DNA from: Alphaproteobacteria bacterium
GTDB taxonomy: Bacteria > Pseudomonadota > Alphaproteobacteria > Rs-D84
Length of the DNA: 64,000 nt
NCBI GenBank assembly: GCA_009784275.1
Contig: WRCA01000001.1
Location: forward strand, 129,783 to 193,782
Direction of reading: 5' to 3'
Both the position numbers and the translations under genes were made by a program. This document shows positions 12,696-59,352 of the stretch, piece by piece. Under the pieces are notes generated by a model. It was not told where the DNA came from and did not search any database. It saw only the letters and a program-made list of their open reading frames with translations. Position 1 is the stretch's first letter. Each line of letters opens with the position of its first letter.

Positions 12696-12771
12696 GGGGC
12701 TGTAGCTCAGTTGGTAGAGCACCTGCTTTGCAAGCAGGGGGTCGTCGGTTCGAGTCCGATCAGCTCCACCA
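12696..12771 (+). tRNA. tRNA-Ala (anticodon UGC)
   Basis: GGGGCTGTAGCTCAGTTGGTAGAGC...CTTTGCAAG anticodon loop, G3:U70 pair, TTCGAGTCC T-loop, encoded CCA. Confidence 0.9.
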
Positions 12772-12796
12772 AAAATTTGTAAAGGGGGTGATTTTT

Positions 12797-13003
12797 ATGG
12801 TCAAAGTTTTGGTTCGCGACAATAATGTGGAACAGGCTCTGCGCGTGTCAAAGCGCAAGTCCCAGAAAGAAGGATTGTATCGCGAAATGAAAGAACGTCA
12901 GCGTTATGAAAAGCCGACGACAAAGCGCAAGCGCTTGAAAGAAGAAGCCGTACGTAATGAAAAAAAACGCCAATCCAAACAACGAATGGTGTTCGGATTC
13001 TAA
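12797..13003 (+). CDS. rpsU: 30S ribosomal protein S21
   Basis: [21 protein letters not shown]...RQRYEKPT. The AAAGGGGG ribosome binding site is 7 nt upstream. The upstream part of the ORF overlaps the tRNA and is discarded. Confidence 0.85.
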
Positions 13004-13029
13004 AAAAACCGCCTAAAGGCGGTTTTTTT
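13003..13029. terminator. bidirectional rho-independent terminator AAAAAACCGCCTAAAGGCGGTTTTTTT
   Basis: GC stem, 4 nt loop, flanking A and T tracts. Sits between convergent rpsU and the M23 peptidase gene. Confidence 0.65.
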
Positions 13030-14320
13030 ACATCGGAATTGATAATCTTGGATTTTTTTCCAGCGCAATCATCGCTTCATCAATTTTCTCGCGCACCTTC
13101 AAGAAGCTTTCTTTCTGCAACGCAGTCAAGTCATCTATACGCGGGAATGTCACAGTCATCGGATTCACGTGTACCCCGTTCTTTATAATTTCATAATGCA
13201 AGTGCGGCCCCGTCGATAACCCCGTGCTGCCCACATATCCGATAATTTGCCCCTGGGCCACCGTTGTGCCTACATTTACGCCCGCTTGAAATTTCGACAT
13301 GTGCGCATAAACCGTTTCGAATCCATTCGCATGTCGAATTCTTACGAAATTACCATATCCTTTATCAAAGGCGCGCTTTACGACCCGACCCGATCCTGCA
13401 GCCGGAATTTTGGTTCCCGATGCCGCACGGAAGTCTACACCCTTGTGCGCGCGGGTAAAGCCCAGCACCGGATGCTTTCTGTTTGGATTAAATTTGCTGG
13501 ATATACTGGCGCCGTCAATCGGGGTTCTTTTTAATGATTTAATTGCACCCTTGCCTTCTTCATCATAATACCCGAACTTTCCATCTGTTTTCTCATACCG
13601 ATACATTTTCAGTTTTCCACGACGATCAAGATGAGTATCGAAAGAAATCGCAATTACTCGTCCGCCATCTATGACTTTGCCATCTATCATGTTTTCTTCA
13701 TACAGCACTGCGAATTCTTGCCCTGGCTGAATATCACGTTCAAAGTCAATTTCAAACGCCAAGTAATTAATAATGTCATAGACTGTGCCAATCGGAATAT
13801 TAGATTCTATTGCCGTTTGGCTGAAAGTTCCGCCCGATGATATTTTTCCAGCGCGGCGAACTATGCGGGTATCTTTTTCAATGCTAACGATTTCCGCACC
13901 CCATTGTCCATCGGTGCAAGTCAGTTCTATCCGTTTCCATGCTCCGCTTGATAAAGTTATTTTTTCCACCGGCGCATCATTAGTTTTCTGTTGCAAAACC
14001 AACACATCCGAATTCGCGCGCAAGCCTGAAACCCCACAATCTTTCTTCAATAGCGCCGCGATAGTATTTATATCATTGCCAGATATATTATGGTCCGACA
14101 AAATCTTGGATAGAGTATCGCCCGCTTCTACTTGGATATGAGTTTCCACCGGCGGGCTGGAAATAATGCGACGGCCAGGCTTTGTTGCAAATAGAGCGGC
14201 CGCAACAACTATCAATATTCCTACCAAAATAATAGCTATGCGCGTCAGATTACGAGCTTTAAATATATTTTTTGCTTTTGCCATGGGGTGGATTATACTG
14301 TTTTTATGGATATGAATCAA
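13028..14320 (-). CDS. M23 family peptidoglycan metalloendopeptidase with LysM-like domain
   Basis: HKGVDF...GTKIPAAGSGRV...YGNFVRIRH...STGPHLHYEI (HxxxD and HxH motifs). N-terminal TM. LysM-like VEAGDTLSKIL. Confidence 0.8.
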   Translation of the reverse strand: MIHIHKNSIIHPMAKAKNIFKARNLTRIAIILVGILIVVAAALFATKPGRRIISSPPVETHIQVEAGDTLSKILSDHNISGNDINTIAALLKKDCGVSGLRANSDVLVLQQKTNDAPVEKITLSSGAWKRIELTCTDGQWGAEIVSIEKDTRIVRRAGKISSGGTFSQTAIESNIPIGTVYDIINYLAFEIDFERDIQPGQEFAVLYEENMIDGKVIDGGRVIAISFDTHLDRRGKLKMYRYEKTDGKFGYYDEEGKGAIKSLKRTPIDGASISSKFNPNRKHPVLGFTRAHKGVDFRAASGTKIPAAGSGRVVKRAFDKGYGNFVRIRHANGFETVYAHMSKFQAGVNVGTTVAQGQIIGYVGSTGLSTGPHLHYEIIKNGVHVNPMTVTFPRIDDLTALQKESFLKVREKIDEAMIALEKNPRLSIPM

Positions 14321-15070
14321 GCATTTGAGATATTAAGAAAAGCTGGTGGCGCACAAGCGGCACGGATTATCCTGCAAAATAAGAAAAAAATCAGCAGATT
14401 AAGGGTCTTTTTAATGGCGCGACAACTGCGACGCAGCATGCCGGTTGCAAAGATCATTGGCGAGAAATGGTTTTATGGATTAAAATTTCACACGACACGG
14501 CACACACTGGACCCGCGACCGGACAGCGAGACGCTGGTAGAGGCGGTGCTGAAGAATAAAAAGCAAAAAATAATTTTAGATATGGGTACCGGGACAGGTT
14601 GTTTAATTTGTTCCATTGTAAAAAACATGCCAGGGACGACAGGAGTTGGGATTGATAAATCATTTGCTGCTTGTCGCATTGCACGCAAGAATGTGAAAGA
14701 TTTGGGATTACAAGATAAAATTAAAATTATCAGAAGTGATTTTACCAATCATAAATCATCAATTTCCGGCTTCGACATCATTATTTCCAATCCGCCATAT
14801 ATTGCAACCAGTGATAATCGTGTGGATGCCGGCGCTTTGCATGATCCAAAGATTGCTTTGTTTGCCGGGGCGGATGGATTGGATGCTTATCGCGCAATTG
14901 CAAAGAATGCAAAAAATTGGCTGCGTGCTGGCGGCAAGATTTTCCTCGAAATCGGTGCGGGACAAGGCAACGCTGTGCGTAAGATTTTCACCGGAGCTGG
15001 CTGGCGTTTTGTCGCTTCTTATAAAGATTTGGGCAGCATTGAACGAGTTTTGGAATTTAGTCTTGTATAG
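14288..15070 (+). CDS. prmC: release factor glutamine N5-methyltransferase PrmC/HemK
   Basis: DMGTGTGC SAM motif and IISNPPYI catalytic NPPY. Confidence 0.8.
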   Translation: MDYTVFMDMNQAFEILRKAGGAQAARIILQNKKKISRLRVFLMARQLRRSMPVAKIIGEKWFYGLKFHTTRHTLDPRPDSETLVEAVLKNKKQKIILDMGTGTGCLICSIVKNMPGTTGVGIDKSFAACRIARKNVKDLGLQDKIKIIRSDFTNHKSSISGFDIIISNPPYIATSDNRVDAGALHDPKIALFAGADGLDAYRAIAKNAKNWLRAGGKIFLEIGAGQGNAVRKIFTGAGWRFVASYKDLGSIERVLEFSLV

Positions 15071-15082
15071 ACCTAAAAATTA

Positions 15083-15868
15083 TTGCCTTTTGATTTTTCT
15101 ATTATTAAAGTGTTTGCAACAAAGAGGCATGTCATGGCTGTATTCACACAGAATTTCAAAAAAACTATTCCTTGGGTGATTTTGTTTTTCATTCTAATCG
15201 GGGTAATTGCGTTTCAATGGTTTGCTTCGACAACCGCGATACGCAACCGTTCCGTTGCCGTGGTCGGCGAATGTATCGGGCGCACAGTAAAGGATACAAC
15301 TGCGATAACCCTGCGTATTCAGACGATGGGGGCAACAGGTGCGGAATCTATGGCGATGGCACGAAGCGCTTATAACATAACAGCCGCAATGCTGAATCAA
15401 TTCGACGGGTTGGAAATTCAAACCAATCGCTGGGAATCTTTTGAAAGGACAGAATGGGAAGGCAACAGCCAGAGGACAATCGGGATTCAGACCACAATCG
15501 GAATTGATGTATCCAGCAAAAATACCAATGACATCGAAGAAGTTCTGGCAAAAGCCGAAAAGATTGAAAACGTTTTTCCAGAGAACTTGCGGATGTTCGC
15601 TTCTAATGAAAAGCTGAAACCTGCATTAGAGGCCTGCATAAACGATGCAGTTCAGAATGCTCGGGCAAAAGCAGAGACTATTGCGGAAAGCGAAGGTGCG
15701 CGCGTTGGCGAAATGATTTCTGCTGAATATGGAAGAACTGCGGATGAAGCAATGCCACGTCCGATGTTGATGAGGGTAATGGCTGCGGACAGCGTGGCTG
15801 GCGCTGGATTCTTTGCAACTGATGCTGAATTTTCTGTAACGGTTCGCGCTGTATTTCAGATCAAATAA
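15083..15868 (+). CDS. periplasmic SIMPL/DUF541-like protein
   Basis: TM or signal peptide then a domain whose composition resembles the SIMPL family. Weak call. Confidence 0.4.
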   Translation: MPFDFSIIKVFATKRHVMAVFTQNFKKTIPWVILFFILIGVIAFQWFASTTAIRNRSVAVVGECIGRTVKDTTAITLRIQTMGATGAESMAMARSAYNITAAMLNQFDGLEIQTNRWESFERTEWEGNSQRTIGIQTTIGIDVSSKNTNDIEEVLAKAEKIENVFPENLRMFASNEKLKPALEACINDAVQNARAKAETIAESEGARVGEMISAEYGRTADEAMPRPMLMRVMAADSVAGAGFFATDAEFSVTVRAVFQIK

Positions 15869-15875
15869 GTTCGCC

Positions 15876-15890
15876 GGGCATATGGCGAAT
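15876..15890 (+). repeat. fragment matching the 5' acceptor/D-stem start of tRNA-Leu(UAG) (GGGCATATGGCG)
   Basis: Compared by eye with 16002-16016. Confidence 0.6.
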
Positions 15891-15960
15891 CCGAGTATAT
15901 GAAATCGAGCAAAGCGAAGATTGAATAACTACGAAGATACGCGCAGACGCGAAGCGGCAA

Positions 15961-15990
15961 GCGAAATTGGCAGACGCGCGGCGCGGATTG
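15961..15990 (+). repeat. fragment matching the D-arm region of tRNA-Leu(UAG) (GCGAAATTGGCAGACGCGC)
   Basis: 18 of 19 identity to 16010-16028, then divergence. Confidence 0.6.
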
Positions 15991-16001
15991 CATCTTTTTA
16001 C

Positions 16002-16086
<85 letters not shown>

Positions 16087-16201
16087 CGAATTTAGTGTAT
16101 GTGAACCTTGTAACCTCACAATGCGCGTCAACCGCTCGCGGCTTACACCGCCGCTCTCGGGACGCTTATACGCTCGGTTTCAAGTCCCTCTATGCCCACC
16201 A
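16087..16201 (+). repeat. tRNA-Leu tail module: about 90 nt conserved spacer ending in an imperfect 26 nt copy of the tRNA 3' end (GGTTTCAAGTCCCTCTATGCCCACCA)
   Basis: The 3' 26 nt have one mismatch against 16061-16086. The spacer is homologous to 47145-47232. Confidence 0.75.
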
Positions 16202-16253
16202 TTTATGACAAATTTATATTTTACATACTCCCTATTATTTTTTGACAAAATAC

Positions 16254-16281
16254 TTGACAAATTAATATATTACTCTATAAT
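16254..16281 (+). promoter_or_regulatory. near-consensus sigma70 promoter TTGACA - 16 nt - TATAAT, only 6 nt before the ATG at 16288 (possible leaderless transcript)
   Basis: -35 at 16254-16259, -10 at 16276-16281. A second TTGACA lies at 16242-16247. Confidence 0.5.
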
Positions 16282-16287
16282 ATTGGT

Positions 16288-16635
16288 ATGAAAATAAAGC
16301 AAAATTATTCAATATCAAACCATTCGCCATATAGTTGTGGGCCGGGAAAGACAGCTTTTAAATGGATAAAAGCCGTGGTTATTGTCGGCGGGTTGACGCT
16401 TGCGGGACTGGGTATAAATAAATTCGTAGAAGGATATATAGAAAATCGTGACGGCACAGGCATGACCCATGGAAAAGCGACCACGATTCTTATCTCCGAA
16501 GGTAAGCCCGAGCATCTGATGTATTCAGACCCAAGGTTTTTCGGGCCAACTGATAAAATGTTTTTCGGCGGTGGTATGACGATCGCTGGAGTGCTCATAA
16601 CTTTGATTGGAATTATAGTTCAAAGAAAAAGGTAA
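16288..16635 (+). CDS. small membrane protein (two TM helices), hypothetical
   Basis: 115 aa ORF with hydrophobic AVVIVGGLTLAGLGI and MTIAGVLITLIGIIV. Confidence 0.35.
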   Translation: MKIKQNYSISNHSPYSCGPGKTAFKWIKAVVIVGGLTLAGLGINKFVEGYIENRDGTGMTHGKATTILISEGKPEHLMYSDPRFFGPTDKMFFGGGMTIAGVLITLIGIIVQRKR

Positions 16636-20315: not shown

Positions 20316-21180
20316 ATTTCAGCGCTTGCTGTATCTGCGCCGCAGGGACTGCGCCCGGGAACGCCTGATCTTGTATGATCAAGAACGGAGTACCTTGGAT
20401 TCCAAACTGTTGCGCCAATTCGCCAACCTGTGCCAATTCATTGTTGACGGTTTCGCTTTTCATATCGGCTTCCAGTTTATCGGCATCCAAGCCAACTTTC
20501 TTTGCCGCCGTCAGGATATTCTTCAAGATCGCTTTTTCCAGCGCTTCTTGGGACTGGCCTTTCAGATCATCCGGCCAATATGGCTTTTCAATCAACAGCT
20601 TATCCAATTCCGCAGCTTTGGTATTGTCTTGGATTTTCGCAGCAATCACTGCACGCGCGGCACCATCTGACAAGACGCCATGGATCGAGAAGTTTTTGAT
20701 GACAACGCGAACGTCTTTGTTGTTTCCCAAGACGGTTAACAACTCTTTATGAACGCGCGCGCAATACGGGCAAGAATAATCAGTGAACAAGAATATTGTT
20801 TTCTTTGCATTCACATCGCCCAGGATCGGAGCATTCGCGACCATTTCTGCCATATGCTTTTTAACATATTTTTTAACTTCCTTGCTAGATTTGCCTTGTT
20901 CCGCATTCTGTGCACCTTTCACCATTTCCATAACGATGCCAGGATTTACATCCGTCAGATAATACGGAGTCCACAAACGCGCAACGCCGATTATCAACAA
21001 AACAATCGATAGCAATTTTATCGATTTTTTCGCGATCATCACGCCAATCGTTGCCGGTTTTTTCATATCATGTTTGATCAGCATTCCGCCGAACAAGTAA
21101 AGAGCGACTGCAATAATCAGCGCCAGGATTGCCCAAGTCATTTTTTCTCCTTTATGTTTGAACGGTATTGAGAGTAGCAA
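20314..21180 (-). CDS. membrane-anchored DsbA-family thiol:disulfide oxidoreductase
   Basis: Two N-terminal TM helices. Thioredoxin-fold domain with DYSCPYCARVH (CPYC active site). Confidence 0.65.
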   Translation of the reverse strand: MLLSIPFKHKGEKMTWAILALIIAVALYLFGGMLIKHDMKKPATIGVMIAKKSIKLLSIVLLIIGVARLWTPYYLTDVNPGIVMEMVKGAQNAEQGKSSKEVKKYVKKHMAEMVANAPILGDVNAKKTIFLFTDYSCPYCARVHKELLTVLGNNKDVRVVIKNFSIHGVLSDGAARAVIAAKIQDNTKAAELDKLLIEKPYWPDDLKGQSQEALEKAILKNILTAAKKVGLDADKLEADMKSETVNNELAQVGELAQQFGIQGTPFLIIQDQAFPGAVPAAQIQQALK

Positions 21181-21234
21181 AGTTCTAGGAATGATTGCAA
21201 GAGGTTTTTTAATGAATCTATCATGTGATTTATG

Positions 21235-21263
21235 TTGACAATAAATGTGATTATGTAATAATG
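21235..21263 (+). promoter_or_regulatory. candidate promoter TTGACA - about 16 nt - TAATAAT upstream of the 527 aa gene
   Basis: Hexamers read by eye. Lower confidence. Confidence 0.3.
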
Positions 21264-21302
21264 CGCCCGCCAGGAGAGAGATAAACTCAAAGGATTGAAA
21301 AT

Positions 21303-22886
21303 ATGGCAGGCCGCGATCTTATTAATGCTGACAAGACACGCAACCCAAAGAATGATGACAAGCGCTGTTCCAAAAGAACCCTGAAGCCAAAGGCGACCAA
21401 GGAATTTCCTTTTCGATTTCGGGAAACTACACATCTCAAATCCAGAGATGTTTCATACTCCGTATCACTGATGAATATGGATAGCAGAAAACCAATCAAA
21501 AGCATCATACAAGGAGCTTTGGAACCGATCGAGATCATCGCCAAATTCAAAGAAACCCCTGTCGCTATTTTACGTAGCACACGAAACAGTAAGAGATTAA
21601 AGCTCGTAGATTTCAATACCACAGAAATACCGTTCGAACAAGGGGCAGCGTTCATAGATTTTGATTCGGAAAACCGTATTTTTTATGCAATGCCTTTGAA
21701 TGCCTCGGGTAAAGTTATGTCCGAAACAATCAGGAAATATGATCCGAAAGATGGAACTGTAACTCCTATACCTGCCAAAGACTATTTCGACAATATCGCA
21801 TCTGAATCAAGACAGCCATGGTGCGCAGACGAAGCGATAGAACAAAGATTCTTTAATAAGACCGAAATAATAGAAAAAAATACACTGGAAGTTATCGAGG
21901 AAGAATCAGAGAATGAAAAAGAAGAGGTCCCTGTGACTGAATCCCAACCGATTATTCCTATTAAAACCGAAATGGAGGTCGAGCCAACCATTCTTGCCAA
22001 GACCGAAACAGAAGAAATCAAAGATTTCGAAGCTCTTAACAATTTAATAAACTCTAATAAGATGTTCGCTACATTGTTGGCTAAGGAGGTAGCAAATCTT
22101 CTTGTCAACGGAAAGAAAATTGAAACCGTCAAAGAGATCACTCCAAAGGCCAAGCCGGTCAAGATAGTAGAAATTATCGAGGATACGCCTGCCCCAAAGA
22201 TTGAGAAAATTCAAAAGAGATCCAAAAGAGATATCCCTCTTGAAGAGACGACTTTGCCGCAAGCGTTAAATAAAAGACGTAATTGGAAGCCCGGTAAAAA
22301 AGAATCTCTACAAGACATATTAGATAGAATTGCATTCCTGAAAAGCCAAGAACCAAAAAAGCAAAGAACGCGGACAAAGAAAGAGAAAGACACGACCGCT
22401 GCAATCAAACCACTGTCACAGACAACCGCCATAGAAGAAAAACAGATAGTTAAGCTTGATACGCCCGTTACGCTGATTCTGCCACCTGAAAAACCAAAAT
22501 CAGTAACAGTTGTAGAAATTCGGAATGATAACAAATCAAAATCTTTGAAAATCGGCAATCAAATCGTATTGAAAGATGTATTTGGCCTTAACTATGTCCT
22601 TAAAGAAAATAACCAGATATTACATGCTTGGTTCGCTAATAAAGACAACAGCAGAGTGACTGAACACAAATTATTTTATCCCGATGCAAAGCCGGTATAT
22701 ACCCCAAAGGATCCCAAGGCTTTTATCGAGAAGATAGAGATCGAACTTTCTTTCGCAAATTTCTACAGCGTCAGCTATGAACTGAATCCATTAAATCCAA
22801 CCAGATATCAAAAGAAAGATTTTTATTTGGAACTTGAAAATTATAAGAATCTTTTCATGACTATTGATGTACAAAATAAAAAATAA
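21303..22886 (+). CDS. hypothetical Lys/Glu-rich protein, no signal peptide (527 aa)
   Basis: Long ORF, charged low-complexity middle (EEESENEKEEVPVTE..., KIVEIIEDTPAPKIEKIQKRSKR). No known motif. Confidence 0.4.
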   Translation: MAGRDLINADKTRNPKNDDKRCSKRTLKPKATKEFPFRFRETTHLKSRDVSYSVSLMNMDSRKPIKSIIQGALEPIEIIAKFKETPVAILRSTRNSKRLKLVDFNTTEIPFEQGAAFIDFDSENRIFYAMPLNASGKVMSETIRKYDPKDGTVTPIPAKDYFDNIASESRQPWCADEAIEQRFFNKTEIIEKNTLEVIEEESENEKEEVPVTESQPIIPIKTEMEVEPTILAKTETEEIKDFEALNNLINSNKMFATLLAKEVANLLVNGKKIETVKEITPKAKPVKIVEIIEDTPAPKIEKIQKRSKRDIPLEETTLPQALNKRRNWKPGKKESLQDILDRIAFLKSQEPKKQRTRTKKEKDTTAAIKPLSQTTAIEEKQIVKLDTPVTLILPPEKPKSVTVVEIRNDNKSKSLKIGNQIVLKDVFGLNYVLKENNQILHAWFANKDNSRVTEHKLFYPDAKPVYTPKDPKAFIEKIEIELSFANFYSVSYELNPLNPTRYQKKDFYLELENYKNLFMTIDVQNKK

Positions 22887-22921
22887 ATAGCGCGGTTAAA
22901 TAATCCCTCTTCTATGGGGGA

Positions 22922-24034
22922 TTATGCCGCTTTCTTCATACCCTGCTTTGCTTCGCGGACGAGTTTGCGCAAGGCATCTATCGATACCAGTGTTCCATCC
23001 CGTTTTTCTGCCGACCAATAATCCCAACCGTTAAAGCTGACCGCGCGCTGTATCCTTGCCGCCATAACATGTATAGAACCTTTGCCATACAAAGCATGCG
23101 ACAGTTGGCCGTCCTTGGTAATCATAACCCTGTCGCCGCGCGGCCCCACCAGGGTTTGTCCCGCATACAACAGTCCGCCATCCAACAATTCCATAAATGA
23201 AACTTTGACTTCTTCGCGTTTCGCCGGCACTTCTATTTCAGACAGATCAATCGGCACAACCGCCGAGATACGACTTTGTGCAGGGGCTATATATTTTCCT
23301 TCCTGCTCTATCCCTATCCAATTCCGCCCCAGTTCCTTTGCAACCGCGCCCGTAGTGCCGCTGCCAAAGAATGGATCAAGTATTACATCGCCCGCGCGTG
23401 TCGATGCCAGGATTATTCTTCGCAGCATATCTGATGGCTTTTGCGTAGTATGCAGGCTCTTCCCGTCATCATCTTTCAACCTTTCCGCCCCCAAGCAGAT
23501 ATCCATTGCCCAATCAGACCGCATTTGCTTGCCACCATTGAACTTTTTCATAGTATCGTAATTAAAGGTATATTTGCCGGTTTTTTCCGGTGTCGCCCAG
23601 ACCAAAGTTTCATGGGCATTTGTAAATCTGGTTCCGCGGAAATTCGGCATAGGATTGGTTTTCACCCAGATTATATCATTCAGAATCCAGAACCCCAAGT
23701 CTTGCATCATAACGCCTACACGGAATATGTTATGATAGCTGCCGATCACCCATAATGATCCGGTTGGTTTAAGAACTCTGCGAACTTCTGTCAGCCACCC
23801 ACGAGTGAAATCATCATATTCCGCCAATGATTCGAAAGAATCCCAATCGTCGCGGACCGCCCGCGCTGCGGTTTGGTCTTCGGGCCTATAGAGTGTTTTA
23901 CGCCCAAGTTGCAGGTTAAACGGGGGATCGGCAAATACTGCATCGACACAACCATCAGGCAGCTTTTTCATCTGCGTAACACAGTCGCCGTGCAAAATCC
24001 GGTTCAGACATTCTCTCACCTCGCATTTTATCAT
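22922..24034 (-). CDS. ccrM: CcrM-like N6-adenine DNA methyltransferase (beta class, GANTC-type family)
   Basis: N-terminal LHGDC...VDAVFADPPFNL, downstream DPFFGSGTTGAVA SAM motif, C-terminal non-catalytic domain as in CcrM. Confidence 0.8.
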   Translation of the reverse strand: MIKCEVRECLNRILHGDCVTQMKKLPDGCVDAVFADPPFNLQLGRKTLYRPEDQTAARAVRDDWDSFESLAEYDDFTRGWLTEVRRVLKPTGSLWVIGSYHNIFRVGVMMQDLGFWILNDIIWVKTNPMPNFRGTRFTNAHETLVWATPEKTGKYTFNYDTMKKFNGGKQMRSDWAMDICLGAERLKDDDGKSLHTTQKPSDMLRRIILASTRAGDVILDPFFGSGTTGAVAKELGRNWIGIEQEGKYIAPAQSRISAVVPIDLSEIEVPAKREEVKVSFMELLDGGLLYAGQTLVGPRGDRVMITKDGQLSHALYGKGSIHVMAARIQRAVSFNGWDYWSAEKRDGTLVSIDALRKLVREAKQGMKKAA

Positions 24035-43282: not shown

Positions 43283-44370
43283 TTTAATAACCTTACTATC
43301 AAATTGTCCAAAAGCAAAAAATTTTTCGCGACTAATCTATTATCTTTAATCGTCAATTCCGCAGAATTCCAATTAGTGATTTCTTTGATTTCCGGCGTCA
43401 GTTTAACGCCCTGCGTTGTGCGCAACCCAGTAAGCAGGACTTCCAAAGCGCGTTCGCGGTTTTGTAGGGGCGCTTCACGAAGCACCCCTATGGAATCGTA
43501 TTTAGTCTCATACCACTGATTATTTATAAAAACTCTGCCTGCGGCGCCGTCACCCAGACCCAGATAAGGCTGACCATCCCACACATTCGCATTATGCTGG
43601 CACGGGGTTCCATAGTTTGACACTTCGTATCGTTGCAAATTTAATGTTTCGCCCACTGCCTCGTACATCTGCGCCATCGTTTCATTGTCGGGCATTTTTA
43701 GATTTTGTTTTGCAAGCGCCGTACCAGATTCGATAGATAACTCATACATAGAACAATGTTCCAATCCCAATTCATTTATTTGCTGGCAGAGTTTTTTTAC
43801 ATCCGCCACAGTTTGATCCGGCAGTCCATAAATAAAATCTGCGCTGACGCGAATACCCGCGTTTTGCGCGTCCGCAATAAATTTTCGCGCATCTGTCGCA
43901 TTATGAATTCGTCCCAAGAATTTTAGTTCTTCATCATTTAATGACTGCACACCAATAGAAATTCTATTGACGCCTGCGGCGATAAATTCTTGCAAACGCT
44001 GTGTATCGATTGTTCCAGGATTTGCTTCGATTGTAATTTCTGTATCTGGCGCGACATCGAATGCACTGCGGATTGCATTCATGATTTCCGCAAAGATTTT
44101 TGTCGGCATCAAGCTGGGCGTGCCGCCGCCGAAAAAGATCGTTGGCACGGCGGCGCGCCCGATCTTCCCGACCCAAAAATTAATTTCTGATAAGATTTGA
44201 TTTTTATAATCCAGCCAATCGGGCGCACCGCAAACCTTGGAATAAAACGCGCAATAATTACATTTCTTTACGCAGAATGGAACATGGATATAGATATTAT
44301 GCGGTGATACAGTCATACGATTATTGCAGAGCTTTTGGAACATATCCAAAAGTTTCATCATTGATACCAT
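43279..44370 (-). CDS. hemW: radical SAM heme chaperone HemW (HemN-like, oxygen-independent coproporphyrinogen oxidase family); true start probably the ATG at 44316
   Basis: IYIHVPFCVKKCNYCAF CxxxCxxC cluster. 4 nt overlap with the pepO start. The longer ORF overlaps the upstream gene by 50 nt. Confidence 0.75.
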   Translation of the reverse strand: MVSMMKLLDMFQKLCNNRMTVSPHNIYIHVPFCVKKCNYCAFYSKVCGAPDWLDYKNQILSEINFWVGKIGRAAVPTIFFGGGTPSLMPTKIFAEIMNAIRSAFDVAPDTEITIEANPGTIDTQRLQEFIAAGVNRISIGVQSLNDEELKFLGRIHNATDARKFIADAQNAGIRVSADFIYGLPDQTVADVKKLCQQINELGLEHCSMYELSIESGTALAKQNLKMPDNETMAQMYEAVGETLNLQRYEVSNYGTPCQHNANVWDGQPYLGLGDGAAGRVFINNQWYETKYDSIGVLREAPLQNRERALEVLLTGLRTTQGVKLTPEIKEITNWNSAELTIKDNRLVAKNFLLLDNLIVRLLK

Positions 44371-46789
44371 TACAGTATGTTTGACTACCGGTAATTCCAG
44401 ATGTACCAGTAGTCTTCAAACCAAATGGACATACTTTATTATTGAAATCTGCGAAACTTACATCGTCGAGAGGAAGGCTTACTACACTGCGCTGACAGCT
44501 GGTACTATTGCAAAGATCCGGATCATTGCTTGCAACTGCATTTGGATCTGGCTGCAGTATTGCTGGAGTACTTGGATAAGTATTATACCGCTCTGGACTG
44601 CAACCCAACGAAGTACCATTAGCACTACGCCGCCCCCCATTTTCCCAACAGCTGCATATCCCCCAAGATGTCGTGTCTATTTTCTTCCCGTAATCCATCG
44701 GGCACATATTTTCTTCAAATACGCCATTCGCAGAAACTATGTCATACAATACAGCCAGCATTGTGATAAAGCCGCCGGGCGTAGAGAAATCCGCCACGCA
44801 GAATTGAGAATACATATCTGGCGATAAAAATCTTTTTTGAACAAATCTGCCGCCATAGTTCTGACATTCGGAAGACAACCTGTTTGTTATCTGATTATAA
44901 ATTTCCGTCGCGACACCCCGGCTATGCATCGATTTTGGATTAAATGTAGTTCCTTCTTCCAACCCATACGTGCCATTCATTTTGTCGAACCCGCCAAATA
45001 CTTCAAGCGCAAAATCAGCATTGTCATCGGTCTTGAAGTTGCAGGCAGTAACATCAATTAGCTGCCTTGCGCATGGCGATATAACAGACCCGCTTTCATC
45101 CTTGAATGTAAACCAATCCAATGCTCTGCCAGTCGAAAAGATTCCGCTGATCGGATTATAAAAGTTGTTATATCCAACGCCACCGAAGTTATCAAAGCAC
45201 TGCTTAACCACCGCGCGGCAGGAATCCATCAGGTCTTGATTCTTTCTATTTTCAATATACTGCGCGATTATTCCCTGCCCTTCGCCGCGGCTGAACATAT
45301 AATCGCATGCGGTCACATATTTCTGACAAGTTGCATCCTGCAGATCGATCATGCCGGGGGTCAAATCTACCGCGCTGTTAATCAATCCAGCCATTGCCGC
45401 GGTTATCGCATGTGACCCATTCATATAACAAGCCGACACGAAGTCCATGCATCCGGTTTTGATTTCATCGACCTTTTCCCTTTGCGAGTAATAGATTTCC
45501 AGCATCGCTTTATCCAAATAATCCGCCCAGACTTGATCTGCTATCTCGGTACATTTATCCAGCGAAGGTTGAGCAAACTGTCTGACCTTTTTTTCAAATG
45601 TAGTCACAAACGTACGATTGTTCGGATTCCTTGCCAGTTTTTGTTCCCCCAGCGATATATTGCTTGTAAATGACAGCATTTCTTGCAATCTGAAAAACTC
45701 TACTACACCCTCCAACGGTCTGCCTGTTGTTACATCTATGAATTTTCCATTATCAAGACACTTGCGGTATCCCAAACCGCAAACTTCTTCAGACTGCACC
45801 GCTTTCTCAACATTGCGCAAGCATTCTGTCGCGTCCGAAGAATTTCGTTCTTGGCGATCCTGAACGCGCGCCAGGTTCAGCATAGCGCCGCCTTCGCGCA
45901 CAGCAGCAGCCATCTTCTTTTTATTTTCATCTATTTGTCTTTGCACTGTGTTGCAATCTTGCTCCACCGCCATCAAATATGCCGTAACCGCGCGCTGCAA
46001 GGCCGCATCGTTGCAATCACCGCGTACAGCTTCGCGACATTTTCCATAAATCGCGGTATAAAGATTTTTTCCGTTGTATGCCGCAATCGCTTGACCGCTG
46101 TCCATAAAGCCAAATCCCGCGGACTCATCCATTTTTATATTGATGCTGTTCAGGCCTTCGTACGCGCCGCCAACCGTGGCATTTTCACCCTTTATTGAAT
46201 TCATAATCGCTTGCAGCAAAGCCTTGGATGCGGACTTGTCGCCGGTCAGTGCCAGCTCTCCCTCGCTGGCCTTGCGCATGGCTTCTGCTTGGGCGGCGCT
46301 CATCCCGACTACATCCAAAGACTCGGTAAAAGTCGTCAGCTGCGCACCAGCATCCCTCATTACGCCTTGCGCCGCAGTAATGTCATAGATTTTATCCGAG
46401 CAAGAACAACGTTGATAAGTTGGATCTTTTATCGCGCAAAATTGGTCCATACAGGCAAAATAAGCGGACTTGCATTGATCGTACTCCATGCCGGTGCGCG
46501 TGCCGACTGATTGAGTTTCCGTTGCAGCGCGCGCCCTTACCAAAGGTTGTTGCGTTGCGGAACGTGTTGTTTGGACTTGCGTTGCACTGCGTGCAGGTGT
46601 TGATGTTGCAGAGCGTGCTGCAACCTGGGGCGCTGCGCCACGCGTAGAAATATTGGTGGTTGCGCTGCGGCTGACAACCTCTGCCGACGTTGCAGGGCGC
46701 GCAGACCTGGTGACATCACGCGGTGCGGCATCTGCATGATGCGCACAAAACAGCGTCAATCCGATAAAAATCAGAGAAATTTTTTTCAT
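44321..46789 (-). CDS. large secreted cysteine-rich protein, paralog B (822 aa)
   Basis: MKKISLIFIGLTLFCAHHADA signal peptide, RSAT-type repeats, SAYFACMDQFC...RCSCS block and further colinear Cys and motif conservation with the 717 aa protein. Confidence 0.6.
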   Translation of the reverse strand: MKKISLIFIGLTLFCAHHADAAPRDVTRSARPATSAEVVSRSATTNISTRGAAPQVAARSATSTPARSATQVQTTRSATQQPLVRARAATETQSVGTRTGMEYDQCKSAYFACMDQFCAIKDPTYQRCSCSDKIYDITAAQGVMRDAGAQLTTFTESLDVVGMSAAQAEAMRKASEGELALTGDKSASKALLQAIMNSIKGENATVGGAYEGLNSINIKMDESAGFGFMDSGQAIAAYNGKNLYTAIYGKCREAVRGDCNDAALQRAVTAYLMAVEQDCNTVQRQIDENKKKMAAAVREGGAMLNLARVQDRQERNSSDATECLRNVEKAVQSEEVCGLGYRKCLDNGKFIDVTTGRPLEGVVEFFRLQEMLSFTSNISLGEQKLARNPNNRTFVTTFEKKVRQFAQPSLDKCTEIADQVWADYLDKAMLEIYYSQREKVDEIKTGCMDFVSACYMNGSHAITAAMAGLINSAVDLTPGMIDLQDATCQKYVTACDYMFSRGEGQGIIAQYIENRKNQDLMDSCRAVVKQCFDNFGGVGYNNFYNPISGIFSTGRALDWFTFKDESGSVISPCARQLIDVTACNFKTDDNADFALEVFGGFDKMNGTYGLEEGTTFNPKSMHSRGVATEIYNQITNRLSSECQNYGGRFVQKRFLSPDMYSQFCVADFSTPGGFITMLAVLYDIVSANGVFEENMCPMDYGKKIDTTSWGICSCWENGGRRSANGTSLGCSPERYNTYPSTPAILQPDPNAVASNDPDLCNSTSCQRSVVSLPLDDVSFADFNNKVCPFGLKTTGTSGITGSQTYCNGINDETFGYVPKALQ

Positions 46790-47057: not shown

Positions 47058-47144
47058 GGTCTTGTGGCGGAATGGTAGACGCTGAGGACTTAAAATCCTT
47101 TGGTTATTGCAACCGTGTGGGTTCGAGTCCCACCAAGACCACCA
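47058..47144 (+). tRNA. tRNA-Leu (anticodon UAA)
   Basis: GGTCTTGTGGCGGAATGGTAGACGCTGAGGACTTAAAATCCTT... long variable arm ...GGGTTCGAGTCCCACCAAGACCACCA. Confidence 0.85.
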
Positions 47145-47258
47145 TGAACTTTGTTCCTATAAACCTTGCAACCTTACGACGCGCACATCTGCTCGTTGCT
47201 AATAACGCTCCTCGCAGTGTGCTTTTACGCTCGGTTTCGAGTCCCACCAAGACCACCA
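47145..47258 (+). repeat. tRNA-Leu tail module (homolog of 16087-16201) ending in an imperfect copy of the tRNA-Leu(UAA) 3' end (GGTTTCGAGTCCCACCAAGACCACCA)
   Basis: 3' 26 nt have one mismatch against 47119-47144. Shared spacer motifs are AACCTTG(T/C)AACCT.AC.A.GCGC and TTACGCTCGGTTTC. Confidence 0.75.
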
Positions 47259-47354: not shown

Positions 47355-48020
47355 TTATCTATTTTTAATATTCCGATTGATGACCGCCATTGCGCGGGCG
47401 TGGTCTTTCGGATTATCCGGAAAGTTAACTAATGCCTTCTTTGCGCCAGCGCCATCACGGCTGGGTTCTACTATTACTTCTGGAACGCTCGATGTTTCTT
47501 TGCCTATATCTTCCAAAACAAAACACCCATCAAATGAAACTCGTTTTGCTTTGAAGCACAATGCTTCATGTTCGCAACGGTCGCAATCAAGCAATAATGG
47601 TCCATGCATCGCTAACTCGGCACATGCCTCTTTGAAAATGTTTTTGGCAGTTTTTTCATCCATACCTATCGCTTTCCCCACCGTCGAGATCGTCAATGCA
47701 ATCGCTTTCTCTGCTTCTGTAGGAGTAATCTCAATTTTATCAAAAAGCTGGTGGGTAACTCGGAAAATATATTTCGACACATTTTGCATTTGGACTAACG
47801 GCGTGGCTTTTTTATATTCTTCGACCTTGTTTCTGGGAACATTCAGAATATCACCAGGCTGGTGCATCGCAGCAACCAAATAATTCGTTTCCGGATATAT
47901 TTTTGCACATTCTTCTGCAAGCGCGGCTTTTTCAAGCAACTGTTCAAACCAATGCTTCATCGAACGCGCATTGCCAATGATCAATCTATTAAATTCTTTT
48001 TCAAATTTTTCAAAAGACAT
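47355..48020 (-). CDS. hypothetical protein with C-terminal Cys cluster (DCDRCEHEALC...C)
   Basis: 221 aa ORF, no family recognised. Possible metal-binding site. Confidence 0.4.
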   Translation of the reverse strand: MSFEKFEKEFNRLIIGNARSMKHWFEQLLEKAALAEECAKIYPETNYLVAAMHQPGDILNVPRNKVEEYKKATPLVQMQNVSKYIFRVTHQLFDKIEITPTEAEKAIALTISTVGKAIGMDEKTAKNIFKEACAELAMHGPLLLDCDRCEHEALCFKAKRVSFDGCFVLEDIGKETSSVPEVIVEPSRDGAGAKKALVNFPDNPKDHARAMAVINRNIKNR

Positions 48021-48186: not shown

Positions 48187-48669
48187 ATGCAACTCACTAA
48201 ATCAACCAAATCGCTGAAAGCGAAGGAATTGGAGTCCAAATGGATTCTAATCGACGCAACCGGCGTTACCCTGGGACGTTTGGCCGCTTATGTCGCCACC
48301 GTTCTGCGCGGAAAGAATAAGCCGACTTTCACACCCAACATGGACTGCGGCGATCATGTCGTCATCATCAATGCTGAAAAAATCGCTTTGTCCGGTCAAA
48401 AAGCTGACAAAACAAAATTCTTTTGGCATACCGGTTGGACCGGCAGCATCAAAGAACGCACTTTTGGTCAGATGCGCGCTGAAAAACCTGAACAGTTTGT
48501 TTTCAATGCCGTTAAACGCATGATGGGACGTCGCACTTCGGTCGCTTTGGCTAACCAACGTTTGAAAAAACTGCACGTTTATGCTGGACCAGAACACAAA
48601 CATGCCGCGCAAAACCCAGTCGTCGTCGACTTTGCAAACATGAATCCGAAAAATAAAAGGGGCGAATAA
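48187..48669 (+). CDS. rplM: 50S ribosomal protein L13
   Basis: [32 protein letters not shown]...[13 protein letters not shown]. Confidence 0.9.
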
Positions 48670-49250
48670 TGGCAGAAGCTACTAAAAAAACTACTACGAC
48701 TGCGAAAAAAGCGGCCCCAGTGAGAAAAGAAGCTGCGCCGAAAGCAGTAGCAGAAAAAAAGACAACTGCACCAAAGGCAGCGGCCCCAAAGGCTGCCGCA
48801 CCAAAAGCGGCACCGAAGGTGGCAGCGGCGAAAGCCCCTGTTGCAGGTGCCAGCGCAAAGCTGAATAAAGCCACTTATGCCACTGGCAAGCGCAAGGATT
48901 CCGTTGCACGCGTATATTTGATTCCAGGCAAAGGCAACATCACTGTAAACAACAAACCGATTGCTGAATATTTCCGCCGTCCTGTGTTACAGATGATCAT
49001 TGCCCAACCATTTGGCGTTACAAAGCGTGATGGTTCTTATGATGTTGTTGCTATGTGCAGCGGCGGCGGATTATCAGGTCAAGCAGGCGCAGTAAAGCAC
49101 GGTATTTCCAAGGCCTTGGTCTTGGTTGAACCGGATTTGCGCAAACCTCTGAAAGCCGCCGGATTCCTGACGCGCGACAGCCGTGTTGTGGAACGTAAGC
49201 ACTATGGCTTCCACAAGGCGCGTCGTTCGACTCAATTCTCGAAACGTTAA
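48669..49250 (+). CDS. rpsI: 30S ribosomal protein S9 with about 60 aa N-terminal Ala/Pro/Lys-rich extension
   Basis: C-terminal ...[20 protein letters not shown]...[17 protein letters not shown] is canonical S9. N-terminal [13 protein letters not shown] repeats. The start overlaps the rplM stop (TAATG). Confidence 0.85.
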
Positions 49251-56840: not shown

Positions 56841-57881
56841 ATGAATAATTCAGGATATGATGCACTTCGTAAAAAATATGGTATTGGAAACTCATCGACA
56901 GATACTAAACCGGCACAAAAGCAAACTGTTGAAAAGCAGACTGTCGTTGCGCCTGAACCTGGCGCAAAACCAGTTACACCACCAGTTATGCCGCGTCCTG
57001 TCGAAGTCCAAAAACCCATTATTCCGACATACGAGAAACCAAAACCGCAAGCTCCGGTTCCTGTAAAACCACAATTGCCCAGCCAATTAAAATTATTCAA
57101 GAAATTAAAAGAAGATGCAGAAATAGATGATGAATGTGAATTTCTGGAAAAATTATTGGAAAAAGTGGAGCTGTTGAATGAATCCGACGCTAAAACAATG
57201 ATGCGCGATTCTTTTAACGATAACGATGAAGGCGAATTCTCATTCGATTACAACGGTTATAATTTCAATATCAAGTACAGTTCAGAAGATGATTTATATA
57301 CCATTACATTGTCGAATGATGACCTGTCGGAAGAAGTCGAACAAGAATTCAAATATGATCCGAAGTCTGAAACGCCGGCGCTTCTTAAAGTTTTGGAACA
57401 AAGATATATTGAATCATTAAATGATGGGGCAAAGAAAGATTTCGAAATTATGCAGAATGTTGAGAAAAACCTTGGAACTAAAATAAAGCATTATTATTCG
57501 GAATCTATCAACTATGGCGAGAATGGCGGCGAGTATTATCTGAAAACCGAGTCAAAACAAAATAAATACATATGCGTCAAAGATACTCAAGATGAAAATG
57601 AAGATATCGCTGATTTCAATAGCATGGATGTGTCCTTCACTAATATTGACCCGGCCATAGATGGCTTTGATATAAGCGACTGCGCACATCACACGATTGA
57701 AATTAATAATTATGAAGTGCCTTATTGGCGCATTGCAAAAAAAATTATTGATTATATCGGCAACGAATATGACAAAGATAGCAATGCCGCTGCAACATCG
57801 CATAATCAGTTGCTGGAAACTCGGAATAAACCCGCCGATGTTCGCCAAAAAATCGTTTTAGATGGAATTAGGCAAATGTAA
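56841..57881 (+). CDS. hypothetical Pro-rich N-terminus / acidic C-terminal domain protein downstream of flotillin
   Basis: 346 aa ORF, GAGGTATCC ribosome binding site-like context. Not an NfeD. Confidence 0.4.
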   Translation: MNNSGYDALRKKYGIGNSSTDTKPAQKQTVEKQTVVAPEPGAKPVTPPVMPRPVEVQKPIIPTYEKPKPQAPVPVKPQLPSQLKLFKKLKEDAEIDDECEFLEKLLEKVELLNESDAKTMMRDSFNDNDEGEFSFDYNGYNFNIKYSSEDDLYTITLSNDDLSEEVEQEFKYDPKSETPALLKVLEQRYIESLNDGAKKDFEIMQNVEKNLGTKIKHYYSESINYGENGGEYYLKTESKQNKYICVKDTQDENEDIADFNSMDVSFTNIDPAIDGFDISDCAHHTIEINNYEVPYWRIAKKIIDYIGNEYDKDSNAAATSHNQLLETRNKPADVRQKIVLDGIRQM

Positions 57882-57887
57882 ATATGA

Positions 57888-57917
57888 TAAAATCCCGCTT
57901 TTGCGGGATTTTTTTAT
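57888..57917. terminator. bidirectional terminator AAAATCCCGCTTTTGCGGGATTTTTTT
   Basis: Between convergent genes. Confidence 0.65.
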
Positions 57918-57922
57918 AACAT

Positions 57923-58723
57923 TTAAAACCTTGCCCCTATATTAATTCCAAGTTCTCTGGTTATATTTGCGGGTTCCATCATCTCAATTTCTATTTGTTT
58001 TCCATTCGATAAAGTTACTTTCTCTACAGATCTTTCCGAATTACCAAATTGTTGATATTTAAAATAAGGTTCTAACCAAAAATAACCATATTCGTAAGAT
58101 ACAGAAAATTCGAACAGAGATCCTTCTTTTTGTTTATATACAACATCTACATCTTTTTTTGACACAGTTCTTGAATATACTACTGTTCCTGACTTAACCG
58201 CGGGAGTGATTATATGTCCCCCTATTTTCCATATATATTTGGTTCCAAAAGTCCAAAAAATCGAATTACGAATACGGCGATGTCCATAATCTGTATTTTT
58301 ATCATTCGAATCATCAAATCCTTTATAATTAGAGCCCGTAAAAAGCACCCAATAATCATCGCCTAACTCATAAAAATTAAAGGCTACGCCAACCTGGGCA
58401 TCTGCGCCAAGATTAACTTGCGATCCATTGAATTCATACGGACTTTTAGCGCTGGTTAGCATATTTACTAGGGAACCGTTATACGAATACTCTTTATGGG
58501 AATAATCTGCCGTAGCATTAAGATAAAGATTGGCTTCATTGCCATTTCCATAGTGTTGAAATCTTACAATAGCCCCCAGAAGGTACCCTGCTTGCTGCAT
58601 ATAACCGGATTCTTTATAAAGGTGATGTCCGACCGTACCGCCAAGATAAAAATTAGTATCTGCATTTGCCTCAAATGGAAGCAACACAGCGGGTATTAAA
58701 AATACAAAGTTAGATTTTTTCAT
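57923..58723 (-). CDS. outer membrane beta-barrel protein (OmpA-like/OmpW-like barrel, about 260 aa)
   Basis: Signal peptide MKKSNFVFLIPAVLLPFEANA. Alternating Tyr/Gly-rich strands. C-terminal ...GINIGARF. Confidence 0.5.
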   Translation of the reverse strand: MKKSNFVFLIPAVLLPFEANADTNFYLGGTVGHHLYKESGYMQQAGYLLGAIVRFQHYGNGNEANLYLNATADYSHKEYSYNGSLVNMLTSAKSPYEFNGSQVNLGADAQVGVAFNFYELGDDYWVLFTGSNYKGFDDSNDKNTDYGHRRIRNSIFWTFGTKYIWKIGGHIITPAVKSGTVVYSRTVSKKDVDVVYKQKEGSLFEFSVSYEYGYFWLEPYFKYQQFGNSERSVEKVTLSNGKQIEIEMMEPANITRELGINIGARF

Positions 58724-58833
58724 TTTTTCCACATTATGCGAAAATAGGGAAATTCTGCCCATAGGTATGAAATCGCTTTTCAGTCAGGTCACAAAAACTT
58801 GTAAAAGCTTAAAATTAATAGTACAATCTTTCT

Positions 58834-59352
58834 ATGTCAGTTATCGATGATATAATTCAATTCAATACCAAATTTGTGGAAAGTAAGGAATACATTCCGC
58901 ATTTATCTGAAAAGATCCCAAAGAAAAAACTAGCTATCCTTTCTTGCATGGATACCAGATTAACACAACTGCTGCCTGCTGCGCTGAATATAAAAAACGG
59001 CGAGGCAAAGATTATAAAAAATGCCGGCGCGATTATATCCCATCCATATGGCAGTGTCATGCGTAGCTTGCTGGTTGCTGTTTATAATTTGGGCGTGCGC
59101 GACATAATGGTAATCGGGCATACAGACTGCGGCATGGAAAAGTTAAATCTGCCAGAGCTTATTAATAAGATGGAACAAAGAGGCATATCCCCAAACATCG
59201 AAAACTATGAATGGCTGCGCGGATTCGATAACACTAATGAATCCATTATGGCCGGTGTGAACATCATAAAGAATCATCCCCTGATGCCAAAGGACATAAC
59301 AGTTCGCGGATTTTTAATGGATATAAATACTGGTAAAATCAACGAGATTTAA
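58834..59352 (+). CDS. beta-class carbonic anhydrase
   Basis: CMDTRL (CxDxR) and GHTDCG (HxxC) zinc-ligand motifs. Confidence 0.7.
   Translation: MSVIDDIIQFNTKFVESKEYIPHLSEKIPKKKLAILSCMDTRLTQLLPAALNIKNGEAKIIKNAGAIISHPYGSVMRSLLVAVYNLGVRDIMVIGHTDCGMEKLNLPELINKMEQRGISPNIENYEWLRGFDNTNESIMAGVNIIKNHPLMPKDITVRGFLMDINTGKINEI

What the first reader, a model, noticed from the sequence alone, without database searches (positions are those of the whole stretch)
15869..16001. 5' fragments of tRNA-Leu upstream of the intact gene (disrupted pseudo-tRNA)
GGGCATATGGCG (acceptor/D start) recurs at 15876-15887, and the D-arm GCGAAATTGGCAGACGCGC at 15961-15979. They are separated by about 70 nt of unrelated sequence and sit immediately upstream of the intact tRNA-Leu(UAG). 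Together with the 3' repeat downstream, the tRNA is flanked by partial copies on both sides, consistent with repeated integration/excision or gene-conversion events at this hotspot. An ORF (15921-16208) spanning it is spurious.
Basis: seen in the sequence. Interest (0 to 1): 0.55.

Follow-up and report, generated by a model that had tools for sequence, protein, structure and literature searches.

The report
Relic 5' half of tRNA-Leu gene
The pieces are real: they are the broken front half of the original tRNA-Leu gene, left at its old position while a working copy sits 126 bases downstream, an ordinary rearrangement scar with no sign of a function.

Summary
CGGGCATATGGCG (15875-15887) repeats the tRNA-Leu(UAG) start exactly. 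GCGAAATTGGCAGACGCGC (15961-15979) repeats its D-arm at 18/19. Two smaller tRNA-derived bits also occur (15943-15951 and 15981-15989). None is expected by chance.

In six related loci the tRNA starts 6-10 nt after the SIMPL gene stop. Here fragment A starts 7 nt after that stop, and the intact gene starts 133 nt after it. So the fragments mark the ancestral tRNA position.

Joined across a 71-nt filler flanked by GCGAA on both sides, they rebuild tRNA positions 1-28 at 28/28 identity to the allele of two relatives. The copy then runs on to U33, just before the anticodon.

The layout is identical in three independent assemblies. It has no Rfam match, no unusual folding and no promoter.

Best reading: a non-functional scar of an insertion or replacement event at a tRNA hotspot. 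A 5'-side integrase event is the leading mechanism. No integrase or island remains.

Separately, 114/115-nt homologous modules follow two different tRNA-Leu genes, each ending in a copy of its own tRNA's T-loop-to-CCA. This is the less ordinary feature. Overall: a new member of a known kind, of low to moderate interest.

The parts
15875..15889 (+). Fragment A: tRNA-Leu(UAG) positions -1 to 14 (5' acceptor strand, D-stem, start of D-loop; A13 allele). It starts 7 nt after the SIMPL stop codon, which is the ancestral start of the tRNA gene.
   Evidence: 13/13 exact repeat. In relatives the tRNA starts 6-10 nt after the same stop codon. L028 has the same leader, TAA-ATTCGCC-GGGCA.
15890..15960 (+). 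71-nt filler of unknown origin that splits the relic. It is flanked by GCGAA on both sides (15885-15889 and 15961-15965).
   Evidence: No other copy in the window or fetched loci. No terminal inverted repeats. One SNP between samples.
15943..15951 (+). Extra short D-arm copy GCAGACGCG (tRNA positions 19-27) inside the filler.
   Evidence: (family D6).
15961..15979 (+). Fragment B: tRNA positions 10-28 (D-arm and start of the anticodon stem), A13 allele.
   Evidence: 18/19 to the intact gene. 19/19 to the tRNA of relatives L002 and L003.
15981..15989 (+). GCGCGGATT: continuation of the relic to tRNA position 33 (U33, just before the anticodon), after a 4-5 nt indel.
   Evidence: Local alignment GCGC-GGATT vs tRNA 25-34.
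15990..16001 (+). 12-nt T-rich leader GCATCTTTTTAC of the intact gene; not tRNA-derived.
16002..16086 (+). Intact tRNA-Leu(UAG), G13 allele. It lies 133 nt after the SIMPL stop instead of 6-10 nt.
   Evidence: ARAGORN; Rfam tRNA 56.5 bits.
16087..16175 (+). 89-nt spacer, homologous to the spacer after tRNA-Leu(UAA). It has a central imperfect hairpin at 16125-16165.
   Evidence: Alignment. Local alignment score 37 against a shuffle maximum of 22. Same hairpin architecture in both copies.
16176..16201 (+). 3' fragment: copy of the T-loop, 3' T-stem, 3' acceptor strand and CCA of tRNA-Leu(UAG).
   Evidence: 25/26. The 23-nt core has 2 matches against 0 expected.
47145..47232 (+). Sister 88-nt spacer after tRNA-Leu(UAA) (47058-47144).
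   Evidence: (family D7). Also present in Logan contig L128.
47233..47258 (+). 3' fragment copying the T-loop to CCA of tRNA-Leu(UAA).
   Evidence: The 23-nt core is exact, 2 matches against 0 expected; (family D2).

Best explanation
The upstream pieces are the decayed 5' half (positions 1-33) of the ancestral tRNA-Leu(UAG) gene. They still sit where that gene began, right after the SIMPL gene. An event in this lineage inserted DNA into the old gene at or near the anticodon loop and brought, or re-created, a complete tRNA-Leu 126 nt further downstream. The most likely agent is a tyrosine integrase of the minority class that enters on the 5' side of a tRNA gene and carries a replacement 5' part, so that a 5' fragment is displaced upstream. 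This step is inferred. Almost all of the inserted DNA was later lost, leaving 12 nt. The relic was then split by a 71-nt insertion that duplicated GCGAA, and it picked up small indels and a stuttered D-arm bit. The relic has no function of its own. It is simply transcribed or carried as part of the SIMPL-tRNA spacer. The T-loop-to-CCA copy 89 nt downstream is a second, independent scar of the usual 3' type.
For: Shown: the repeats are real and non-random. Six related loci place the tRNA 6-10 nt after the SIMPL stop, with no fragments. Fragment A lies 7 nt after that stop, and an 85% relative has the same leader. Joining A and B across the GCGAA duplication gives GGGCATATGGCGAAATTGGCAGACGCGC, which is 28/28 identical to the L002/L003 tRNA. 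The copy ends at U33, inside the anticodon loop, a standard integrase crossover site. Fragment A alone covers the 5' acceptor strand, D-stem and D-loop. That is the same repeat reported for islands entering at the 5' end of arg2 in Klebsiella (10.1101/2020.11.02.365908). A 5' fragment upstream of the intact gene is the accepted configuration for 159 of 3919 Islander islands (PMC4383910). No function is indicated: no Rfam hit, folding z-score -0.41, no promoter, and one SNP in the filler between samples. The site is a hotspot: there is an older inversion breakpoint 3' of the tRNA, a different palindromic insertion at the same spot in L027, and non-syntenic DNA downstream.
Against: No integrase, island or attP-like sequence was found (collection scans). 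Only 12 nt of non-tRNA DNA separate the end of the relic from the intact gene, so the integrase step rests on geometry alone. At least three events are needed (entry, loss of the insert, 71-nt insertion). The filler has no inverted terminal repeats and no second copy, so its origin is unknown. No relative closer than 74% protein identity could be read across the junction, because the contigs of the 85% and 89% relatives end there.
Confidence: 0.5

Rival explanations
1. Local tandem duplication and decay. A segment holding the tRNA-Leu gene was duplicated head to tail by slippage or unequal crossing-over. The upstream copy became redundant, lost its 3' two-thirds and accumulated the 71-nt filler and indels.
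For: Identity with the intact gene starts exactly at position -1. The overlapping, stuttered D-arm pieces (positions 19-27, 10-28, 25-33) look like slippage or template switching. No integrase is present.
Against: The leaders of the two copies differ (GTTCGCC vs GCATCTTTTTA). The 12 nt before the intact gene do not resemble the sequence after it, as a tandem junction would require. Tandem Repeats Finder reports no repeat. The relic carries the A13 allele and the intact gene G13. The model does not explain why the copy stops at U33.
Confidence: 0.25
2. Replacement by acquired DNA. A horizontally acquired segment carrying its own tRNA-Leu(UAG) and the genes to its right was joined into the old tRNA gene by illegitimate or homology-facilitated recombination. 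This destroyed the resident copy from position 34 onward.
For: Everything to the right of the tRNA (ORFs from 16288 on, ECF sigma factor) has no counterpart at this position in the relatives. The relic and the intact gene differ in allele (A13 vs G13). Nearly identical acceptor and T-arm sequences occur in phage-borne tRNA-Leu(UAG) genes, so such genes do travel.
Against: GC content to the right is unremarkable (0.42-0.45). The intact tRNA is typical of the clade; its 5' half is identical to that of L005. No mobility genes were found in the ORFs scanned.
Confidence: 0.15
3. Functional leader. The tRNA-like 5' pieces are kept because, as RNA, they pair with the 3' acceptor strand of the tRNA or of the downstream 3' fragment. 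In this way they modulate tRNA processing or act as a decoy.
For: The structure is fixed in three samples. The 5' acceptor copy is exactly complementary to both 3' acceptor copies (sequence).
Against: There is no structural signal (z-score -0.41) and no Rfam match. It is absent from every relative examined. Indels and a filler disrupt the copy, and a SNP lies in the filler.
Confidence: 0.05

Closest known systems
Displaced tDNA fragments that mark genomic-island ends (Islander principle; Williams 2002; Hudson et al. 2015, PMC4383910)
   Same: An intact tRNA gene plus cognate partial copies in the same orientation, with the 5' fragment upstream and the 3' fragment downstream. Fragment boundaries fall in the anticodon loop (U33) and the T-loop, the two main crossover sublocations. 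5' fragments are the rare class (159 of 3919 islands).
   Different: No island and no integrase lie between fragment and gene: only 12-113 nt upstream and 89 nt downstream. The 5' fragment is itself interrupted.
Islands that enter at the 5' end of a tRNA gene (arg2 in Klebsiella pneumoniae; D-loop sublocation; bioRxiv 10.1101/2020.11.02.365908)
   Same: The repeat covers the 5' acceptor strand, D-stem and D-loop, which is exactly the extent of fragment A (-1 to 14). The element lies upstream of the tRNA.
   Different: Those are kilobase islands with their own integrase. Here nothing of the element can be recognised.
Partial tRNA genes left by integrated elements, often mis-annotated as tRNAs (van der Gulik et al. 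2023, PMC9897764)
   Same: The same kind of by-product, including its use as a marker of later rearrangements.
   Different: Those fragments were long enough to be called tRNA genes by software. These are not called by ARAGORN or by the Rfam tRNA model.
Cis-mobilizable elements (CIMEs): att-flanked remnants of integrative elements that lack recombination genes
   Same: For the 114/115-nt modules after the two tRNA-Leu genes: att-like direct repeats flank DNA that has no integrase.
   Different: CIMEs are kilobases long and lie next to or derive from identifiable ICEs. These are about 115 nt, and no parent element is known.

Membership tests
tDNA fragment from site-specific integration (Islander-type) | Intact tDNA plus a cognate fragment on the same strand in the correct configuration (5' fragment upstream, 3' fragment downstream) | tested here: met
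tDNA fragment from site-specific integration (Islander-type) | Fragment boundary at a known crossover sublocation (anticodon loop, T-loop, 3' end, D-loop) | tested here: met
   The relic ends at U33. Fragment A ends in the D-loop. The 3' fragment begins at the T-loop. Sublocations are as described in the papers read.
tDNA fragment from site-specific integration (Islander-type) | Integrase gene and island DNA between the fragment and the tDNA | tested here: not met
   Only 12-113 nt upstream and 89 nt downstream. None of the 29 ORFs scanned has a Phage_integrase hit.
tDNA fragment from site-specific integration (Islander-type) | Uninterrupted ('virgin') site in relatives | tested here: met
   L001-L005 and L029 have the tRNA 6-10 nt after SIMPL, with no fragments and no 89-nt module. 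These relatives are only 61-74% identical in the SIMPL protein.
tRNA pseudogene by tandem duplication | Duplicated flank at the junction and similarity over the rest of the gene | tested here: not met
   There is no similarity beyond position 33. The leaders differ, and there is no tandem-repeat signal.
IS/MITE insertion (for the 71-nt filler) | Target-site duplication | tested here: met
   GCGAA occurs on both sides. Removing one copy and the filler restores 28/28 identity to the L002/L003 tRNA.
IS/MITE insertion (for the 71-nt filler) | Terminal inverted repeats and further copies in the genome | tested here: not met
   No inverted repeats. No other copy in the 64-kb window or the fetched loci. 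The whole genome was not available.
Known structured RNA (Rfam) | Match to a covariance model | tested here: not met
   Only the intact tRNA matches, at gathering threshold and at E<=10.
Miniature or cis-mobilizable integrative element (for the 114/115-nt modules) | Homologous internal sequence at different att sites, each bounded by repeats of its own target | tested here: met
Miniature or cis-mobilizable integrative element (for the 114/115-nt modules) | Evidence of mobility (empty or occupied sites among close strains, a circular form, a cognate integrase) | not testable with these tools
   All near-identical assemblies carry the modules. No closer relatives or whole genome could be reached.

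The most novel reading that the evidence does not exclude
The 114/115-nt modules after tRNA-Leu(UAG) and tRNA-Leu(UAA), and perhaps the roughly 126-nt stretch before tRNA-Leu(UAG), are not decayed islands. They are gene-less miniature integrative elements, essentially bare attP sites with a conserved hairpin. An integrase supplied in trans would insert them into tRNA-Leu genes, making them the tyrosine-recombinase counterpart of MITEs.
Probability: 0.12. Interest if true: 0.55.

Novelty: new member of a known kind. Interest (0 to 1): 0.27.

Why it matters
On its own this matters little. It is a clean example of how a tRNA-gene hotspot records past insertions, and a reminder that gene callers place spurious ORFs (15921-16208) over such scars. 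It also shows that comparison with relatives can tell which copy is ancestral: here the fragment is, not the working gene. The two homologous 115-nt modules behind different tRNA-Leu genes would matter more if they prove mobile. Integrase-dependent miniature elements of this size have not, to my knowledge, been described.

Tried and rejected
- Chance or assembly artefact: rejected by the shuffle controls and by three independent assemblies.
- A cryptic second tRNA or another known RNA: rejected.
- Upstream stretch related to the downstream 89-nt spacer, in either orientation: no similarity.
- The 89-nt spacer as a decayed tRNA copy: no similarity to either tRNA-Leu.
- Filler copied from nearby sequence: only 9-mers at chance level.
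- Filler as a member of the palindromic repeat family seen in relative L027: that family is absent from the window.
- The older inversion as the cause of the fragments: rejected, because L001 shares the inversion without the fragments.
- Collection searches for the 89-nt module: metagenome and viral scans with two conserved motifs gave only chance hits, and phage and plasmid BLAST gave nothing.
- Viral hits to the tRNA 3' end: all are complete phage-borne tRNA-Leu genes, not att fragments.
- Attempts to read the tRNA-Leu(UAA) locus in relatives failed. The 221-aa neighbour has no homologues, and exact look-ups of RplM and RpsI found nothing.
- Covariation in the spacer hairpin: with only two sequences, 4 of 6 doubly changed pairs stay paired. 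My hand calculation puts the chance probability at roughly 0.04-0.15, which is suggestive only. The automatic alignment shifts the register, so no formal pair count was made.

Full report
**What is there.** The window holds an intact tRNA-Leu(UAG) at 16002-16086 (ARAGORN; Rfam tRNA 56.5 bits). CGGGCATATGGCG at 15875-15887 equals 16001-16013 exactly. GCGAAATTGGCAGACGCGC at 15961-15979 matches tRNA positions 10-28 at 18 of 19. Neither is expected by chance: the 13-mer has 2 matches against 0.09 expected, and no shuffle reaches the observed counts. Iterated local alignment of 15869-16001 against the tRNA finds two further tRNA-derived bits: GCAGACGCG at 15943-15951 (positions 19-27) and GCGC-GGATT at 15981-15989 (positions 25-33/34). 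Downstream, 16176-16201 repeats the T-loop, 3' acceptor strand and CCA at 25/26.

**Not an artefact.** The SIMPL protein encoded just upstream and the small ORF just downstream were looked up by exact sequence. Contigs from ENA sample ERZ27257295 and Logan run SRR10512951 carry the same upstream stretch (one SNP, in the filler) and the same downstream stretch. Those contigs break inside the tRNA, as is common for conserved genes in metagenome assemblies.

**Comparison with relatives.** The SIMPL gene (15134-15868) was used to fetch related loci. They come from MAGs labelled Alphaproteobacteria, plus three labelled Muribaculaceae, at 61-71% protein identity. A further relative was reached through the protein database (P0004, 74%).
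- In all six, tRNA-Leu(UAG) starts 6-10 nt after the SIMPL stop codon, with no partial copies anywhere in the locus.
- In the window, fragment A starts 7 nt after the stop and the intact gene starts 133 nt after it.
- An 85% relative has the same leader (TAA-ATTCGCC-GGGCA) before its contig ends.
- So fragment A sits at the ancestral start of the gene, and the working gene is the displaced one.

**Anatomy of the relic.**
- Fragment A ends in ...GGCGAA and fragment B begins GCGAAATT.... The five bases GCGAA occur on both sides of the intervening 71 nt.
- Removing the filler and one GCGAA gives GGGCATATGGCGAAATTGGCAGACGCGC. This is 28/28 identical to the tRNA of relatives L002 and L003 (A at position 13) and 27/28 to the window's own gene (G13).
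- After a 4-5 nt indel the copy continues as GGATT to position 33, the base before the anticodon, and then stops.
- Twelve unrelated T-rich bases (GCATCTTTTTAC) lead into the intact gene.
- The relic is therefore one 5' half (positions 1-33) that was later split, not two independent fragments.
- The filler has no inverted ends and no other copy in the window or fetched loci. It has only chance-level matches to nearby sequence. Tandem Repeats Finder reports nothing.

**No sign of function.** Nothing in Rfam matches the region even at E<=10. Its folding energy is ordinary (z = -0.41). No sigma-70-like promoter lies in it. It is absent from all relatives. The ORF 15921-16208 runs through the tRNA on the same strand and has no family hit on record.

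**The site is a hotspot.**
- Relatives L003-L005 have M23(-), methyltransferase, SIMPL, tRNA-Leu, terminator, rpsU(-), tRNA-Ala(-), ABC(+). The window and L001 have that block inverted relative to rpsU-tRNA-Ala, with a breakpoint just 3' of tRNA-Leu. L001 shares the inversion but has no fragments, so the inversion is older and is not the cause.
- The genes to the right of the tRNA in the window have no counterpart at that place in the relatives.
- In the 89% relative L027, the same spot after the SIMPL stop is occupied by a different insertion. It is a very stable palindromic repeat (z = -5.9), with an inverted partial copy elsewhere in that contig. That family is not in the window.

**How it most likely arose.**
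- A 5' fragment upstream of an intact tRNA gene is the accepted footprint of the minority of integrases that insert on the 5' side and bring the replacement 5' part. That class accounts for 159 of 3919 islands in Islander (PMC4383910).
- Islands entering at the 5' end of arg2 in Klebsiella have a repeat made of the 5' acceptor strand, D-stem and D-loop (10.1101/2020.11.02.365908). Fragment A has exactly that extent.
- The end of the whole relic at U33 lies in the anticodon loop, the commonest crossover sublocation.
- I therefore rank an integrase-type entry, followed by loss of the insert and a later 71-nt insertion, as the leading mechanism.
- The mechanism is inferred from geometry only. No integrase was found in the 29 ORFs scanned, and only 12 nt of putative element remain.
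- Rivals are tandem duplication with decay and replacement by an acquired segment carrying its own tRNA. The first fits the stuttered D-arm bits but not the different leaders or the stop at U33.
- That the pieces are a non-functional relic of the ancestral gene I hold at about 0.8. The integrase route I hold at about 0.4. The combined statement gets 0.5.

**The downstream side.**
- The 89 nt after tRNA-Leu(UAG) (16087-16175) are homologous to the 88 nt after tRNA-Leu(UAA) (47145-47232). The alignment runs from the base after CCA to the partial tRNA copy. The local score is 37 against a shuffle maximum of 22.
- Each module ends in a 26-nt copy of the T-loop-to-CCA of its own tRNA. In both, the bases just 5' of the T-loop are the module's own conserved ACGCTCGGT rather than the T-stem.
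- This is what attR of a T-loop-type integration looks like. Yet each 'element' is only 114-115 nt, with no genes.
- The two spacers fold into the same three-part hairpin at matching positions, with several pairs changed on both sides. With two sequences this is only suggestive.
- The second module is confirmed in an independent assembly.
- No relative of the module was found in viral contigs, JGI metagenomes, phage genomes or plasmids.
- The upstream stretch is unrelated to these spacers.
- Two colinear homologous mini-scars at different tRNA genes are hard to get by independent decay. A small non-autonomous integrative element is a possibility that I could not test.

**Verdict.** The finding is a scar, a new instance of a known kind. 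It has one instructive twist (the fragment, not the gene, marks the ancestral site) and one mildly unusual neighbour (the paired 115-nt modules). Interest 0.27.

Noticed in passing
window 16087-16201 and 47145-47258: Homologous 114/115-nt modules follow two different tRNA-Leu genes (UAG and UAA). Each has an 88/89-nt spacer, about 70% identical between the two, with a shared central hairpin. Each ends in a 26-nt copy of its own tRNA's T-loop-to-CCA. No genes, no integrase, and no relatives in any collection searched.
   Followed up: partly
L027 2116-2232 and 1232-1300 (JGI 3300010167 contig; SIMPL 89% identical): A very stable palindromic repeat (117 nt, -56 kcal/mol, z = -5.9) sits right after the SIMPL stop, where the tRNA should be. 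An inverted partial copy lies in the preceding intergenic region. This is a REP/MITE-like family in that relative, absent from the window and without an Rfam match.
   Followed up: partly
window 12696-16086 compared with L003-L005: The block M23 peptidase - methyltransferase - SIMPL - tRNA-Leu is inverted relative to rpsU - tRNA-Ala - ABC transporter in the window and in L001, but not in L003-L005. One breakpoint lies just 3' of tRNA-Leu.
   Followed up: partly
L129-L165 (IMG/VR contigs): Thirty-seven large-phage contigs carry complete tRNA-Leu(UAG) genes inside Val-Pro-Leu-Ser-Gly-Gln-Ala-Gly arrays, many with a tmRNA. Their last 23 nt (T-loop to CCA) are identical to the window's tRNA. Overall identity is 62-76 of 85.
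   Followed up: partly
window 16202-16287: An AT-rich stretch holds two overlapping consensus promoters (TTGACA at 16242 and 16254; TATAAT ending at 16281; 12/12 match). It also has a 19-nt direct repeat (16206 and 16255), in front of a small membrane-protein ORF (16288-16635) that has almost no homologues.
   Followed up: no
window 48669-49250: Ribosomal protein S9 carries an N-terminal extension of about 70 residues, rich in Ala, Lys and Pro, ahead of the Pfam domain.
   Followed up: no
window 44321-46789 (-) and 47355-48020 (-): An 822-aa cysteine-rich protein with a signal-like N-terminus and no Pfam family. Next to it is a 221-aa protein with no detectable homologue in the 5.8-billion-protein database.
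   Followed up: no
window 21000-24034 and 57000-59000: Lower-GC stretches (0.35-0.40 against about 0.45). The first lies next to an orphan N6/N4 DNA methylase with a RAMA domain (22922-24034, - strand). These may be acquired DNA.
   Followed up: no
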